Source: Escherichia coli 042
Lineage (GTDB): Bacteria > Pseudomonadota > Gammaproteobacteria > Enterobacterales > Enterobacteriaceae
DNA length: 64,000 nt
Direction: 5' to 3' (one strand)
Assembly (NCBI RefSeq): GCF_000027125.1
Contig: NC_017626.1
Shown here: piece after piece, positions 20,253 through 23,495 of the stretch
Layout: every line of letters starts with the position of its first letter
Numbering within the stretch: the stretch's first letter is position 1
Notes under the pieces: generated by a model
Database searches by the model: none
Seen by the model: only the letters and a program-made list of their open reading frames with translations
Told to the model about the DNA's origin: nothing
Position numbers and translations under genes: made by a program

Positions 20253-20403
20253 ATTTGATCCTCGTTATTATCAACCGCGGGCCTACCTTACCTGATTGCG
20301 CATTCACAACGCTTTCAGAAAAGTCCATAAAGCCGCGATGAACCTCAGTTAAGAAAATTATGGTCTACACTGAAAATTACATCGAATTCTAATGGGGGAT
20401 CAT

Positions 20404-20733
20404 ATGTTTAACCGACCGAACCGCAACGACGTCGATGATGGCGTGCAGGATATCCAGAATGATGTCAATCAATTAGCTGACAGCCTCGAATCTGTATTGA
20501 AGTCCTGGGGCAGCGACGCCAAAGGGGAAGCCGAAGCCGCTCGTAGTAAAGCGCAGGCTCTACTGAAAGAAACCAGAGCGCGAATGCATGGTCGTACTCG
20601 CGTCCAGCAAGCCGCGCGCGATGCCGTTGGCTGCGCGGATTCTTTTGTTCGTGAAAGACCCTGGTGTAGCGTGGGTACAGCAGCTGCGGTTGGTATTTTT
20701 ATCGGCGCACTGTTAAGCATGCGCAAATCGTAG
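20404..20733 (+). CDS. ygaM: ElaB/YqjD-family ribosome- and membrane-associated protein YgaM
   Basis: MFNRPNRNDVDDGVQDIQNDV... with C-terminal transmembrane anchor; 109 aa. Confidence 0.9.
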   Translation: MFNRPNRNDVDDGVQDIQNDVNQLADSLESVLKSWGSDAKGEAEAARSKAQALLKETRARMHGRTRVQQAARDAVGCADSFVRERPWCSVGTAAAVGIFIGALLSMRKS

Positions 20734-20754
20734 TGCAATAATGATATTAAATAC

Positions 20755-20781
20755 GCGTCTTTGACCCCGAAGCCTGGCTTC
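20755..20781 (+). terminator. Rho-independent terminator (ccccgaagcc / gcttcgggg stem, then T6)
   Basis: Perfect GC-rich hairpin followed by TTTTTT directly after ygaM. Also abuts the 3' end of the convergent MocR-type gene. Confidence 0.8.
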
Positions 20782-20789
20782 GGGGTTTT

Positions 20790-22124
20790 TTAGCTTAAGG
20801 CTTTACGTAATTGTTGTGCTACCTGTCGCGCCATACCTTCGTTAACGATATTAGTAAACGAGAGCAGTAATCCACCTTCCCCACTTGAACGGATACGCCA
20901 GTCGCTAAGTGCCTGCACCGCAAGGCCTGCAGCATTGGCTTTACGCGCATGGGCAATATCATCGCCTATCATTCTGATCACCATCTGGATACCACCTTTC
21001 TGCGGCACAACCTGAAATCCTTGCTGCGTCAACGCTTGCTCAATCCATTGCCGACGTTGAGCATAATGCTGACGCATTTTCTTCAGATGCCGCCAGAAAT
21101 GCCCCTCGCGAAGAAAGTCTGCCAGTGTGTTCTGCCATAGAACAGGTACCGCACATGGAGCCAGTGACGCCTGGTGGCGGAATTGTGCAATTTGCTTCAC
21201 CGGCAACACCAGCCACGCACAGCGCAATGCAGGAAATAGCGCTTTGCTGAATGTTCCGGCATAAATTACCCGCTGCGGTGCGTCGAGACTTTTTAACGCC
21301 GGTAACGGCTTACCGTGATAGCGAAACTCACTGTCATAATCATCTTCAATAATCCATGCCTGACTACGATCTGCCCATTCCAGTATCTGATGCCTGCGCG
21401 CTAAAGAGAGCGCCACACCCAGCGGACTTTGGTGTGCTGGTGTTATCAGGGCAAAACGCGCATCAGGATAATTTTGTATTCCGCTTGTGATATCCAGTCC
21501 ATTGTCATCAACCGGCACAGGCAAAATTTCCACATCATGGCGAGTGACAATCGGGCGAATCAGTGGAAAGCCGGGATCTTCTATCCACATCCCGTTTCCC
21601 GGTTTCGCCAGCGCGTGCAGAATTAAAGCTATTGAGGCCGCATAACCGTGAGTGATAAAGACCTGCTCTGGCTGACAATCAATCCCACGTGAAACGCGTA
21701 AGTAATCAACTATTGCCTCGCGCAACGCCACCTCACCGCAGACATCGCCTAACGCCAAATCAAAGCGCGTCTGGGTACGAAGGCGACGCCCCATCACCCG
21801 CGCCCACAGCTCTCGCGGAAAGAGATCGAGTGCGGGTAATCCCATTTGAAATGGCAACGGTTGCTGACTTTCACCGGCAAAAGCTAAAACTTGTACAGTA
21901 GATTGTTGCGGATATATCCGCTCACTGACAAATGTGCCAGCCTGTCCCCGCCTGATCAGCCATCCTTGCGCCACCAGCTCAGCATACGCATTTTCGACAG
22001 TGGATCGAGACACCCCCAGCTCCTGCGACCAGGTACGACTTGAAGGCAGCCTTGCGCCGGGTTTCAGTTCCCCTTGCTCAATAGCCGTTTTTAACTGACG
22101 GGCGATATCCTGATAGCGCGGCAT
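20790..22124 (-). CDS. MocR/GabR-family regulator (GntR-type wHTH fused to a PLP-dependent aminotransferase-like domain)
   Basis: N-terminal HTH (SRTWSQELGVSRSTVENAYAELVAQGWL) and a C-terminal fold-type-I domain with the PLP-lysine motif GTFSKALFPALR. Not in the K-12 order ygaM-nrdH as I recall it. Confidence 0.8.
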   Translation of the reverse strand: MPRYQDIARQLKTAIEQGELKPGARLPSSRTWSQELGVSRSTVENAYAELVAQGWLIRRGQAGTFVSERIYPQQSTVQVLAFAGESQQPLPFQMGLPALDLFPRELWARVMGRRLRTQTRFDLALGDVCGEVALREAIVDYLRVSRGIDCQPEQVFITHGYAASIALILHALAKPGNGMWIEDPGFPLIRPIVTRHDVEILPVPVDDNGLDITSGIQNYPDARFALITPAHQSPLGVALSLARRHQILEWADRSQAWIIEDDYDSEFRYHGKPLPALKSLDAPQRVIYAGTFSKALFPALRCAWLVLPVKQIAQFRHQASLAPCAVPVLWQNTLADFLREGHFWRHLKKMRQHYAQRRQWIEQALTQQGFQVVPQKGGIQMVIRMIGDDIAHARKANAAGLAVQALSDWRIRSSGEGGLLLSFTNIVNEGMARQVAQQLRKALS

Positions 22125-22211
22125 ATGGTCTGCTTTTTTAGGTAATTTATGGCTCTCTTTAGCAGTCCATTATAGTGCTACATTGCGGGCGTTAATAAGA
22201 GGAGAAACTGT

Positions 22212-22643
22212 ATGACTACATTACGTCAGCCTTACTACGAACTTAGCCCGGCAGTGTATAACGCACTAGTGCAGGCCAAAACGGCACTGGAAAATAGCAC
22301 GCTGGATACCACGTTGATGGAGTTAGTTTATTTGCGCGTCTCGCAAATCAACGGCTGCGCATTTTGTCTGGAGATGCACAGCAAAGCATTGCGCAAATCC
22401 GGCGTGCCACAGCACAAACTGGACGCCCTGGCAGGTTGGCGCGTAAGCCATCATTTTGATGAACGCGAGCGGGCGGCGCTGGCATGGGCGGAATCGGTAA
22501 CCGAAATTGCCAGAACCCATGCGGAAGACGAGGTTTATCAGCCTTTGCTTGAGCATTTCAGCGCAGCAGAGATCAGCGACTTAACGTTTGCCATCGGGCT
22601 GATGAATTGTTTTAACCGTCTGGCCGTTTCCATGCGGATGTAA
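22212..22643 (+). CDS. Carboxymuconolactone-decarboxylase family / AhpD-like protein
   Basis: 143 aa with a CxxCxxxH motif (GCAFCLEMH) as in the AhpD core; divergent from the MocR-type gene. GAGG upstream of the ATG. Confidence 0.75.
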   Translation: MTTLRQPYYELSPAVYNALVQAKTALENSTLDTTLMELVYLRVSQINGCAFCLEMHSKALRKSGVPQHKLDALAGWRVSHHFDERERAALAWAESVTEIARTHAEDEVYQPLLEHFSAAEISDLTFAIGLMNCFNRLAVSMRM

Positions 22644-22851
22644 CTTCTTGATGCCGGGTATTCGCCCGGCAAAAAAACACAAAATCCCCTACCCCGTTGA
22701 GCCATTCATCGGTGGCGTAATCAATCTAAAATTCCCATATCTTGTATGGTTGAATCTTTTTTCAACTACATCTAGTATCTCTGTATCAACAGAGATACAA
22801 CCCGACGCGTATCATCGCGCCGTATCTTCATTTTAAACGGAAATACGAATC

Positions 22852-23097
22852 ATGCGCATTACTATTTACACTCGTAACGATTGCGTTCAGTGCCACGCCA
22901 CCAAACGGGCGATGGAAAACCGGGGCTTTGATTTTGAAATGATTAATGTCGATCGCGTTCCTGAAGCGGCAGAAGCGCTGCGTGCTCAGGGCTTTCGTCA
23001 GTTGCCGGTTGTGATTGCAGGCGATCTTAGCTGGTCTGGTTTCCGTCCGGACATGATTAACCGTCTGCATCCAGCGCCACACGCGGCCAGTGCATGA
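22852..23097 (+). CDS. nrdH: Glutaredoxin-like protein NrdH
   Basis: 81 aa; CVQC redox motif; followed by nrdIEF. Confidence 0.93.
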
Positions 23098-23495
23098 GCC
23101 AGCTCGTCTACTTCTCCAGTAGCTCCGAAAATACGCAGCGTTTTATCGAACGTTTAGGACTGCCCGCGGTGCGCATCCCGCTCAATGAGCGGGAACGGAT
23201 TCAGGTAGACGAGCCTTACATCCTGATCGTGCCCTCTTACGGCGGCGGCGGTACGGCTGGCGCAGTGCCACGACAGGTCATTCGCTTTTTAAACGACGAG
23301 CACAACCGGGTGTTGCTGCGCGGCGTTATTGCTTCGGGTAATCGCAACTTTGGTGAGGCGTATGGCCGCGCCGGAGATGTGATAGCCCGGAAATGCGGCG
23401 TGCCGTGGCTGTACCGCTTTGAACTCATGGGTACGCAAAGCGATATCGAAAACGTTCGTAAAGGAGTAACCGAATTTTGGCAACGACAACCGTAG
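23094..23495 (+). CDS. nrdI: Flavodoxin-like NrdI (class Ib RNR maturation)
   Basis: [22 protein letters not shown]...; ATGA overlap with the nrdH stop. Confidence 0.92.

What the first reader, a model, noticed from the sequence alone, without database searches (positions are those of the whole stretch)
20755..22851. Divergent MocR-type regulator / AhpD-like pair inserted between ygaM and nrdH
In K-12 as I recall it, ygaM is followed directly by nrdH. Here ~2 kb intervene, encoding a MocR/GabR-family regulator (wHTH plus PLP-binding aminotransferase fold, lysine in GTFSKA) on the minus strand and, divergently, a 143-aa AhpD-like protein with CxxCxxxH. MocR regulators usually sense a PLP-reactive small molecule and control the adjacent divergent gene, so this looks like a self-contained sensor-effector module of unknown ligand. 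It sits immediately upstream of the nrdHIEF promoter and might influence it.
Basis: partly seen in the sequence, partly recalled or inferred. Interest (0 to 1): 0.6.

Follow-up and report, generated by a model that had tools for sequence, protein, structure and literature searches.

The report
Ancestral MocR regulator/AhpD-like pair lost in K-12
This is an ordinary, already-catalogued two-gene module (a PLP-binding MocR regulator and the small thiol enzyme it probably controls) that is ancestral at this spot in enteric bacteria and was deleted in K-12, not inserted here.

Summary
A 444-aa MocR/GabR-type regulator (20790-22124, minus strand) and a divergent 143-aa AhpD-like CMD protein (22212-22643, plus strand) lie between ygaM and nrdH. 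The PLP lysine and the CxxCxxxH motif are both intact.

The "insertion" reading is wrong. The same order, ygaC-ygaM-MocR-CMD-nrdHIE, occurs in E. albertii, Citrobacter, Pseudocitrobacter, Cedecea, Pluralibacter, Shimwellia and Rahnella. K-12 keeps a remnant of the sequence downstream of the CMD gene.

Among 5426 complete E. coli genomes:
- 1387 carry the pair, including CFT073, E2348/69 and O157:H7.
- 4033 share one identical K-12-type junction.

The "self-contained module" idea is supported. The 87-bp divergent region holds a conserved 46-bp operator of two direct boxes plus one inverted box. It overlaps both face-to-face promoters and matches the PdxR/GabR layout.

Salmonella STM2803 with a COG2128 (AhpD-family) target was already listed as a predicted MocR regulog in 2016. 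The structurally solved relative PA0269 is a hexamer with weak cysteine-dependent peroxidase activity. Ligand and substrate remain unknown.

Low interest; already-known kind.

The parts
20763..20787 (+). ygaM intrinsic terminator hairpin. The left edge of the segment missing in K-12-type genomes lies just after it, at about 20791/20792.
   Evidence: Terminator scan. K-12 homology ends at window ~20791.
20790..22124 (-). MocR/GabR-subfamily regulator gene, 444 aa: GntR-type wHTH plus a fold-type-I aminotransferase-like PLP domain.
   Evidence: Full-length match to B. clausii PdxR (7pq9, E=1e-62) and B. subtilis GabR (4n0b, E=5e-55).
21243..21245 (-). Codon of Lys294, the predicted PLP Schiff-base lysine in GTFSKA.
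   Evidence: Aligns with GabR K312 and PdxR K309. D261, Y263, S293 and R301 are also conserved (residue roles from PMC10450172).
22125..22132 (+). Operator box 1, ATGGTCTG (direct). It abuts the MocR start codon.
   Evidence: At least 90% conserved across 23 taxa in the intergenic alignment. Part of the composite motif.
22133..22148 (+). Conserved A/T-rich spacer (CTTTTTTAGGTAATTT) between boxes 1 and 2.
   Evidence: The T-run is conserved. It parallels the curvature-inducing A/T tract of the PdxR target DNA (PMC10450172).
22149..22156 (+). Operator box 2, ATGGCTCT (direct, 24 bp after box 1). It overlaps the -35 position of the CMD promoter.
   Evidence: The 24-bp spacing is constant from E. 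coli to Vibrio, Colwellia and Pseudomonas.
22163..22170 (+). Operator box 3, CAGTCCAT, which is the inverted copy (ATGGACTG).
22171..22177 (.). Overlapping face-to-face -10 elements: TATAGT on the + strand (22171-22176, CMD gene) and TATAAT on the - strand (22177-22172, MocR gene).
   Evidence: Read directly from the sequence. The block CCAT.ATAGTGcTA is conserved in all taxa. The promoter assignment is inferred and was not called by the consensus scan.
22199..22204 (+). Shine-Dalgarno GAGGAG of the CMD gene.
   Evidence: Conserved in all aligned taxa.
22212..22643 (+). AhpD-like CMD-family protein gene, 143 aa. Residues E37, C49, C52 and H56 are present; F51 replaces the Tyr/His of the proton relay.
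   Evidence: It is 41% identical, without gaps, to PA0269 (2ijc/2o4d).
22653..22670 (+). GC hairpin after the CMD gene, followed by an A-run rather than a T-run. Its 3' half and the next ~27 nt (22664-22697) survive as a remnant in K-12-type genomes.
22731..22778 (+). Neighbouring nrdHIEF promoter core, which is not part of the module. It comprises NrdR-box-like 22731-22746 and 22763-22778 (32 bp apart), -35 TTGAAT at 22750-22755 and -10 TAGTAT at 22773-22778.
   Evidence: Conserved in carriers, K-12 and other genera. Box spacing as described in PMC2892513. Element names are inferred from the consensus.

Best explanation
This is a vertically inherited, self-contained regulator-effector pair. 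It is ancestral at the ygaM-nrdH position in Enterobacteriaceae. One deletion of about 1.87 kb removed it in the lineage that gave K-12 and about three quarters of sequenced E. coli. Shown: the regulator is a PLP-competent MocR/GabR-type protein. Shown: the 87-bp divergent region carries a deeply conserved 46-bp operator, box 1 ATGGTCTG, an A/T tract, box 2 ATGGCTCT, then inverted box 3 CAGTCCAT. Inferred: the MocR dimer binds this operator. Box 3 lies just downstream of the regulator's own TATAAT, so the protein would repress its own promoter. Box 2 sits over the poor -35 of the CMD promoter, so the protein would control that promoter in an effector-dependent way. By analogy with PdxR and GabR, it would switch between the direct pair (boxes 1+2) and the inverted pair (boxes 1+3) when a ligand reacts with, or occupies, the PLP site. 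The sole target in E. coli is a small, probably ring-forming AhpD-like thiol oxidoreductase (C49-x-x-C52, H56, E37). Its most likely job is to reduce a peroxide, disulfide or electrophile-derived species. In Pseudomonas the orthologous regulator faces an operon of a GNAT acetyltransferase, an AzoR-like flavoprotein and this CMD protein. That context points to amine, quinone or electrophile detoxification rather than vitamin B6 synthesis. The ligand and substrate are not identified.
For: - Gene identities.
- PLP residues K294, D261, Y263, S293 and R301 align with the PLP-site residues of PdxR and GabR.
- Ancestry: the same gene order occurs in E. albertii, three Citrobacter, Pseudocitrobacter, Cedecea, Pseudescherichia, Shimwellia, Pluralibacter, several Enterobacter spp. 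and Rahnella.
- K-12 remnant: the K-12 intergenic sequence aligns to window 22664-22697.
- E. coli dimorphism: 4033 genomes share one K-12-type junction at >=99% identity, against 1387 carriers.
- Purifying selection: dN/dS 0.03-0.11.
- Operator footprint: three boxes are >=90% conserved in 23 taxa while the surrounding intergenic DNA is unalignable.
- Operator specificity: the composite pattern occurs once in the 64-kb window, at 22126-22170. It occurs at the expected place and orientation in 36 of 79 related loci, with only 2 other matches in 1.42 Mb searched.
- The same architecture, with the 24-bp box 1 to box 2 spacing, is seen in Hafnia, Budvicia, Vibrio, Colwellia and Pseudomonas.
- Literature: the 'two direct plus one inverted' layout is the commonest MocR motif. 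STM2803, CKO_04020 and Spro_3719 are listed as regulating COG2128, and PA0268 as regulating PA0269 (PMC5320631). PdxR binds a 48-bp target with motifs 1 and 2 direct, motif 3 inverted, and an A/T tract (PMC10450172).
- PA0269: hexamer with weak NEM-sensitive H2O2 reduction (PMC3141380).
- Pseudomonas operon content.
Against: - No binding, expression or enzymatic data exist for this protein pair.
- Both promoters are inferred. The consensus scan did not call them because the -35 hexamers are poor.
- Whether the regulator activates or represses the CMD gene is not determined.
- The relay residue Tyr50 of PA0269 (His in M. tuberculosis AhpD) is Phe51 here, which may weaken or change the chemistry.
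- About 111 genomes keep the CMD gene but have lost the regulator's N-terminal half. So the regulator is dispensable and the module may be decaying.
- A Salmonella STM2804::cat insertion was used as a neutral marker in mouse competitions (PMC3723669).
Confidence: 0.62

Rival explanations
1. Recent insertion: the pair is a horizontally acquired islet that landed between ygaM and nrdH in this strain's lineage.
For: It is absent from K-12 and from 4033 of 5426 complete E. coli genomes. The MocR/ygaM segment is unusually divergent between the B2-type and O157-type alleles (dS 0.41 and 0.33, against 0.06-0.14 in the flanks). That divergence could reflect recombination.
Against: The same position and orientation occur in E. 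albertii and in about 20 other enterobacterial genera or species. No mobility genes, tRNA or flanking repeats were seen. K-12 retains a degraded piece of the CMD-downstream hairpin and the adjacent 27 nt. Identity falls off with phylogenetic distance (90% E. albertii, about 75% Citrobacter, about 65% others), as expected for vertical descent.
Confidence: 0.03
2. It is PdxR, as newer RefSeq/PGAP annotations call it: a PLP-level sensor regulating vitamin B6 biosynthesis or salvage.
For: NCBIfam NF052282 'PdxR' scores 407.7 bits against a cutoff of 320. The best solved relative is B. clausii PdxR. The PLP site is conserved. The operator architecture resembles that of PdxR.
Against: No pdxS/pdxT or other B6 gene is adjacent. 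The divergent gene is an AhpD-like protein. Every CMD-linked MocR tested passes the same cutoff with 413-428 bits (Pseudomonas, Vibrio, Bradyrhizobium, Hafnia, Citrobacter and a Bacillota MAG). One of them scores higher on the rhizopine-MocR model, so the model does not discriminate function. The 2016 regulon survey places STM2803 and its relatives in a separate group from PdxR.
Confidence: 0.1
3. The CMD protein works with the adjacent class Ib ribonucleotide reductase system. Transcription from the MocR-controlled promoter would read through into nrdHIEF, or the CxxC protein would exchange electrons with NrdH.
For: The CMD gene is on the same strand as nrdH and 208 bp upstream of it. No canonical intrinsic terminator was found between them, only a hairpin followed by an A-run. 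The adjacency is conserved across Enterobacteriaceae and Rahnella. In Salmonella a functional nrdHIEF Fur box was mapped 309 bp upstream of the transcription start (PMC2892513). By geometry that would lie inside the CMD-homologue coding region.
Against: nrdHIEF has its own conserved promoter with NrdR boxes in both carriers and non-carriers. Three quarters of E. coli lack the pair. Relatives outside this clade (Hafnia, Budvicia, Pectobacterium, Pseudomonas) have the MocR-CMD pair without nrd genes nearby. Conserved adjacency is explained by vertical inheritance.
Confidence: 0.08
4. The small protein is a true gamma-carboxymuconolactone decarboxylase (PcaC) for aromatic catabolism.
For: It matches Pfam CMD (PF02627), and RefSeq names it 'carboxymuconolactone decarboxylase family protein'.
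Against: It has the AhpD core CxxC...H motif, which gamma-CMD enzymes lack (PMC3141380). No PcaC model appears among the NCBIfam hits. No pca genes are nearby.
Confidence: 0.02

Closest known systems
Salmonella Typhimurium STM2803 with a COG2128 target ('Spro_3719 - Enterobacteriales' MocR regulog; Suvorova & Rodionov 2016, PMC5320631)
   Same: A MocR regulator predicted to control a single adjacent COG2128 (AhpD-family) gene. STM2804 lies about 5 kb from stpA (PMC3723669), as the CMD gene does here. Citrobacter, Klebsiella, Enterobacter and Serratia members are listed in the same regulog.
   Different: E. coli was represented only by K-12, which lacks the pair, so this member was not listed. 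The regulog is an in-silico prediction with no experimental follow-up.
Pseudomonas aeruginosa PA0268 (MocR) / PA0269 (AhpD-like; PDB 2ijc, 2o4d, 7xw1)
   Same: The same pairing of a MocR regulator with a COG2128 protein. PA0269 aligns over its full length without gaps (41% identity). E37, C49, C52 and H56 match its E36, C48, C51 and H55.
   Different: It is a different orthologous group in the 2016 survey, and its regulon also includes a cupin (COG1917). Tyr50 of PA0269 is Phe51 here. Only PA0269 has a structure (hexamer) and a weak peroxidase assay.
Bacillus clausii PdxR with its pdxR-pdxST intergenic operator (PMC10450172)
   Same: It is the best structural relative of the regulator (E=1e-62). 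The PLP lysine and site residues are conserved. The operator of about 46-48 bp has two direct motifs, one inverted motif and an A/T tract, and lies between divergent promoters.
   Different: The target there is PLP synthase pdxST and the effector is PLP itself. Here the target is an AhpD-like protein and there are no pdx genes. The box sequences are unrelated.
Bacillus subtilis GabR-gabTD
   Same: The same domain architecture. The proposed logic is also the same: an autorepressor that controls the divergent gene from sites overlapping its -35, with the effector acting through the PLP site.
   Different: The position aligned to GabR Arg207 is Leu188 here. I recall Arg207 as a GABA-carboxylate contact; this rests on my memory of the GabR literature and was not tested. 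The targets there are a transaminase and a dehydrogenase.
Mycobacterium tuberculosis AhpD
   Same: The CMD fold, with a CxxC plus His/Glu relay.
   Different: AhpD is a larger trimeric protein encoded next to ahpC and reduces AhpC. Here there is no ahpC neighbour, and the AhpD model TIGR00777 scores 30.9 against a cutoff of 192.

Membership tests
MocR/GabR subfamily of GntR regulators | N-terminal GntR-type winged helix-turn-helix | tested here: met
   Pfam GntR covers residues 4-66, E=1.4e-17.
MocR/GabR subfamily of GntR regulators | C-terminal fold-type-I aminotransferase-like domain joined by a linker | tested here: met
   Pfam Aminotran_1_2 covers residues 126-386, E=1.8e-25. Full-length alignments to GabR and PdxR structures.
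MocR/GabR subfamily of GntR regulators | PLP Schiff-base lysine and PLP-anchoring residues | tested here: met
   K294 aligns with GabR K312 and PdxR K309. D261, Y263, S293 and R301 align with PdxR D276, Y278, S308 and R316.
MocR/GabR subfamily of GntR regulators | Operator made of direct and/or inverted repeats next to its own gene | tested here: met
   Boxes at 22125-22132, 22149-22156 and 22163-22170 are conserved in 23 taxa. The composite motif is locus-specific. Actual protein binding was not testable.
MocR/GabR subfamily of GntR regulators | PLP binding and effector-dependent DNA binding | not testable with these tools
   Needs purified protein, spectroscopy and EMSA.
PdxR (NCBIfam NF052282; name used by PGAP) | HMM score above the curated cutoff | tested here: met
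   407.7 bits against a cutoff of 320.
PdxR (NCBIfam NF052282; name used by PGAP) | Divergent or adjacent pdxST or other vitamin B6 genes as the regulated target | tested here: not met
   The neighbours are ygaM, the CMD gene and nrdHIE. None of the 22 enterobacterial loci showed anything other than the CMD gene divergent from the regulator.
PdxR (NCBIfam NF052282; name used by PGAP) | The model discriminates PdxR from other MocR groups | tested here: not met
   Six CMD-linked MocRs from distant taxa all score 413-428 bits. The Pseudomonas one scores higher on the rhizopine-MocR model.
AhpD-like / CMD superfamily (PF02627, TIGR00778 core domain) | CMD domain | tested here: met
   Pfam CMD E=5e-21. 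TIGR00778 scores 54.9 against a cutoff of 27.8.
AhpD-like / CMD superfamily (PF02627, TIGR00778 core domain) | CxxC with the His/Glu proton relay (five residues in AhpD and PA0269) | tested here: inconclusive
   E37, C49, C52 and H56 are present. The fifth residue (Tyr50 in PA0269, His132 in M. tuberculosis AhpD) is Phe51 here and in all Enterobacteriaceae aligned.
Bona fide AhpD (TIGR00777; partner of AhpC) | Family HMM above cutoff, and ahpC in the same operon | tested here: not met
   TIGR00777 scores 30.9 against a cutoff of 191.95. There is no ahpC within the locus.
Gamma-carboxymuconolactone decarboxylase (PcaC) | PcaC-type motif without CxxC, in a pca gene context | tested here: not met
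   CxxC is present. No PcaC model appears among the hits. There are no pca neighbours.
'Spro_3719/STM2803' MocR-COG2128 regulog (PMC5320631) | MocR gene divergent from a COG2128 gene in Enterobacterales | tested here: met
   supplementary table read.
'Spro_3719/STM2803' MocR-COG2128 regulog (PMC5320631) | Direct orthology to STM2803/STM2804 | not tested
   No Salmonella sequence was retrieved. Supported only indirectly: STM2804 lies about 5 kb from stpA, and Citrobacter orthologues are 75-77% identical.

The most novel reading that the evidence does not exclude
The MocR regulator senses an as yet unknown amine or electrophile through its PLP site. In carriers this drives both the AhpD-like thiol protein and, by read-through past a terminator-less hairpin, the class Ib ribonucleotide reductase operon nrdHIEF. 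A quarter of E. coli, including B2 uropathogens and O157:H7, would then have an extra stress input into dNTP synthesis that K-12 lost.
Probability: 0.07. Interest if true: 0.55.

Novelty: already known. Interest (0 to 1): 0.17.

Why it matters
It matters little for discovery. Both gene families are annotated in over a thousand E. coli genomes, and the regulator-target pairing was predicted by comparative genomics in 2016.

Four points may be practically useful:
- K-12 is the derived state here, so K-12-based views of the nrdHIEF upstream region do not apply to B2 or O157 strains.
- The exact 46-bp operator is now mapped for anyone who wants to de-orphan this MocR.
- About 111 natural isolates lack the regulator's DNA-binding half but keep the target gene, which is a ready-made comparison.
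- The newer RefSeq label 'pdxR' for this gene is probably an over-annotation.

Tried and rejected
- Rfam scan of 20300-23200 at E<=1: only a sub-threshold chance hit.
- Generic repeat finder on the intergenic region: it missed the 8-bp boxes and gave only a chance 10-mer. The boxes emerged only from phylogenetic footprinting.
- Consensus promoter scan: nothing in 22125-22211, and no terminator after the CMD gene.
- Full-text searches for MocR with 'carboxymuconolactone decarboxylase' or with AhpD: zero papers.
- Locus-tag search: it found only the use of STM2804 as a neutral marker site.
- PA0269 in the HOCl/HOSCN and sulfane-sulfur papers: mentioned only as an alignment partner or in a proteome list, with no functional clue.
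- Fur-box scan: the only 13/19 match near nrdH in K-12 lies just after the ygaM stop. Its counterpart in the window (20737) is 2.1 kb from nrdH. Published models rate Fur sites in this region as weak, so I drew no conclusion.
- Considered and rejected: a mobile-element origin, a PcaC decarboxylase role, and a true AhpD/AhpC partnership.
- Not run: structure prediction (close solved homologues exist) and the large protein-database searches (the answer did not depend on them).
Full report
**Observation.**
- ORF listing gives ygaM (20392-20733, +), a 444-aa ORF on the minus strand (20790-22124), a 143-aa ORF on the plus strand (22212-22643) and nrdH (22852-23097), followed by nrdI and nrdE.
- The 444-aa protein has a GntR-type wHTH (residues 4-66, E=1.4e-17) and a class I/II aminotransferase domain (E=1.8e-25).
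- It aligns over its full length to the solved MocR-type regulators PdxR of B. clausii (7pq9, E=1e-62) and GabR of B. subtilis (4n0b, E=5e-55).
- In those alignments the lysine of GTFSKA (K294, codon 21243-21245) matches GabR K312 and PdxR K309. D261, Y263, S293 and R301 match PdxR residues that the structural paper names as lining the PLP site.
- The 143-aa protein matches Pfam CMD (E=5e-21) and the AhpD core-domain model TIGR00778 above its cutoff.
- It carries C49-A-F-C52-L-E-M-H56.

**Distribution in E. coli.**
- The 1.85-kb segment holding both genes is found in 1387 of 5426 complete E. coli genomes. It is always chromosomal and always single copy.
- It comes as two allele classes. One is >=99% identical to the window (1007 genomes, including CFT073, E2348/69 and APEC O2:K1). 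The other is about 92% identical (365 genomes, essentially O157:H7 and relatives).
- The K-12-type ygaM-nrdH spacer of 247 bp is present as one contiguous match in 4033 genomes, almost all at >=99% identity.
- The species is therefore cleanly dimorphic, and all non-carriers share one junction.
- A third state exists. About 111 genomes have a 589-bp deletion between the microhomologies CATCATGG and CATATGG. It removes the regulator's first ~194 codons, including the wHTH, but leaves the operator and the CMD gene intact. RefSeq marks the remnant as a pseudogene.

**Insertion or deletion?**
A scan of one genome per species returned 79 loci encoding relatives of the regulator. I mapped the window's neighbouring proteins onto them.
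- The order nrdE-nrdI-nrdH-CMD / MocR-ygaM-ygaC-alaE-stpA is found in E. albertii, the E. coli species representative, Pseudocitrobacter, Cedecea, Pseudescherichia vulneris, Shimwellia, Pluralibacter, several Enterobacter spp. and Rahnella.
- Three Citrobacter species have the same order but without ygaM.
- Regulator identity declines with phylogenetic distance: 90% in E. albertii, about 75% in Citrobacter and about 65% in the others.
- K-12 homology runs to window ~20791 and resumes at 22664-22697 with GCCTGGTGAATCACAAAAATCCCCCTACCCCGT. That is a degraded copy of the 3' half of the hairpin after the CMD gene plus the next 27 nt.
- The pair is therefore ancestral at this site, and K-12 carries a deletion of about 1.87 kb.
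- Both genes are under purifying selection in every comparison, with dN/dS 0.03-0.11.

**Operator.**
I aligned the divergent intergenic region from the window and 22 enterobacterial loci. Most of it is unalignable, but one block is >=90% conserved:
- box 1, ATGGTCTG (22125-22132);
- a T-rich spacer;
- box 2, ATGGCTCT (22149-22156, 24 bp after box 1);
- box 3, CAGTCCAT (22163-22170), which is the inverted complement ATGGACTG;
- then CCAT.ATAGTGcTA.

A regular expression for the composite motif hits once in the 64-kb window on either strand, at 22126-22170. It hits 36 of 79 related loci at the expected place and orientation, with only two other hits in 1.42 Mb searched. Hafnia, Budvicia, Vibrio, Colwellia and Pseudomonas show the same three boxes with the same 24-bp spacing.

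'Two direct boxes plus one inverted' is the commonest MocR operator type in the 2016 survey. It is also the layout of the 48-bp PdxR target, which has an A/T tract between motifs 1 and 2.

The conserved block after box 3 reads TATAGT on the plus strand (22171-22176) and TATAAT on the minus strand (22177-22172). I infer these are face-to-face -10 elements. Box 2 then covers the very poor -35 of the CMD promoter, and box 3 lies just downstream of the regulator's own -10. This promoter assignment is inferred; the consensus scanner did not call it.

**The effector gene.**
- The closest solved structures are PA0269 of P. aeruginosa (2ijc, 2o4d, 7xw1; E=3e-31) and Atu0492.
- Identity to PA0269 is 41% over 141 residues without a gap.
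- PA0269 is a ring hexamer with weak, NEM-sensitive H2O2 reduction. Its proposed relay is E36, C48, Y50, C51 and H55 (PMC3141380).
- Here E37, C49, C52 and H56 are kept, but the middle residue is Phe51. It is also Phe in all Enterobacteriaceae aligned.
- The protein fails the model for true AhpD (30.9 against a cutoff of 192). It has no ahpC neighbour, and it is not a PcaC-type decarboxylase.

**Wider family and literature.**
- The supplementary tables of Suvorova & Rodionov 2016 list a 'Spro_3719 - Enterobacteriales' regulog. In it STM2803 (Salmonella LT2), CKO_04020, Ent638_0497, a Klebsiella gene, ECA2654 and Spro_3719 each regulate a COG2128 (AhpD-family) gene.
- The same tables list a 'PA0268' regulog (PA0268 regulating COG2128 plus a cupin). 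COG2128 occurs in 53 MocR regulons overall.
- E. coli was represented there only by K-12, which has two MocRs and lacks this one.
- STM2804 is described elsewhere as a gene of unknown function about 5 kb from stpA. It was used as a neutral marker insertion site.
- In Pseudomonas loci whose regulator is 47-48% identical to the window's, the divergent operon is GNAT acetyltransferase (PF00583), then an AzoR-like flavoprotein, then the CMD protein.
- That content suggests handling of amines, quinones or electrophiles.

**Mechanism.**
- Shown: the domain architecture, the intact PLP site, the conserved locus-specific operator and its position relative to both start codons, vertical inheritance and purifying selection.
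- Inferred: the dimer binds the operator, represses its own gene through box 3, and controls the weak CMD promoter through box 2. It would switch between the direct (1+2) and inverted (1+3) binding modes when a ligand acts at the PLP site, as described for PdxR and GabR.
- Inferred: the CMD protein is a thiol-dependent reductase.
- Unknown: the sign of regulation, the ligand and the substrate.
- The position aligned to GabR Arg207 is Leu188. I recall Arg207 as a GABA-carboxylate contact, which would argue against a GABA-type ligand. That residue role rests on my memory of the GabR literature and was not tested.

**Relation to nrdHIEF.**
- The nrdH promoter core is conserved in carriers, in K-12 and in other genera. 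It comprises two NrdR-box-like 16-mers 32 bp apart, TTGAAT, a 17-bp spacer and TAGTAT. The box spacing agrees with PMC2892513.
- The pair lies upstream of it.
- The CMD gene is followed by a GC hairpin with an A-run, not a canonical terminator. Read-through therefore cannot be excluded, but nothing shows it.
- The 50 nt just upstream of the -35 differ markedly between K-12 and all Escherichia carriers.

**Annotation note.**
Newer RefSeq records call the regulator 'pdxR'. It does exceed the NCBIfam cutoff (407.7 against 320). So do six CMD-linked MocRs from Pseudomonas, Vibrio, Bradyrhizobium, Hafnia, Citrobacter and a Bacillota MAG (413-428 bits). None of the enterobacterial loci has a pdx gene next to the regulator. 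The name is generic rather than evidence of function.

**Verdict.**
- The 'insertion' interpretation is wrong; this is an ancestral pair deleted in K-12.
- The 'self-contained sensor-effector module' idea is well supported in silico and was already predicted for the Salmonella orthologue.
- It is an ordinary member of a known, experimentally uncharacterised MocR-COG2128 class. Interest is low.

Noticed in passing
window 21541-22127 (equivalent region in L082 around 1934-1946): About 111 complete E. coli genomes carry a 589-bp deletion between the microhomologies CATCATGG and CATATGG. It removes the regulator's start codon and first ~194 codons but keeps the operator and an intact CMD gene. These are natural regulator-null strains. 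Only four were inspected individually.
   Followed up: partly
window 20404-22124 compared with L002 (O157-type allele): Synonymous divergence between the B2-type (window) and O157-type alleles is 0.41 in the regulator gene and 0.33 in ygaM. It is 0.06-0.14 in ygaC, the CMD gene, nrdH and nrdI. This approaches the E. coli to E. albertii distance (0.69) and suggests an old polymorphism or a recombination patch.
   Followed up: partly
window 22698-22749 compared with L001 1937-1987 (K-12 type): The ~50 nt just upstream of the nrdH -35 in K-12-type genomes differ strongly from all Escherichia carriers. Their first part (CCCCGTCACGCTCAT) matches Citrobacter. The NrdR-box-1-like element is CTATATATTGTGT in K-12 and CCATATCTTGTAT in carriers. 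The K-12-type allele may have a more complex origin than a simple deletion.
   Followed up: partly
L002 1843-1960 (O157-type allele, between ygaM and the regulator's 3' end): The O157-type allele has about 93 extra bases after ygaM that look like a REP element (GCGTCAACGCCTTGTCCGCCTACAGGCC). They replace the Fur-box-like AATAATGATATTAAATACG found at window 20737 and just after ygaM in K-12.
   Followed up: no
window 20790-22124 (RefSeq annotation of the same gene in other genomes): Newer PGAP annotations name this gene 'pdxR' (pyridoxine biosynthesis regulator). All CMD-linked MocRs tested exceed that model's low cutoff, and no pdx gene is adjacent. The name is probably an over-annotation.
   Followed up: yes
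L022, L023, L026, L028, L031, L042 (Pseudomonas spp.), about 2350-3900: In Pseudomonas the orthologous regulator faces a three-gene operon: GNAT acetyltransferase, AzoR-like flavoprotein, AhpD-like CMD protein. The enterobacterial version has only the CMD gene.
   Followed up: partly
window about 22470-22480 (by geometry); Salmonella LT2 nrdHIEF upstream region: A published functional Fur box for Salmonella nrdHIEF lies 309 bp upstream of the transcription start (PMC2892513). By geometry that would be inside the STM2804 (CMD homologue) coding region. No Fur-like sequence is seen at the corresponding place in the window. The Salmonella DNA was not retrieved.
   Followed up: no
L004, L005, L006 (Citrobacter spp.), about 5333-5460: These Citrobacter loci keep the regulator, the CMD gene and nrdHIE but have no detectable ygaM between the regulator and ygaC. 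This is an independent small loss in the same neighbourhood.
   Followed up: no
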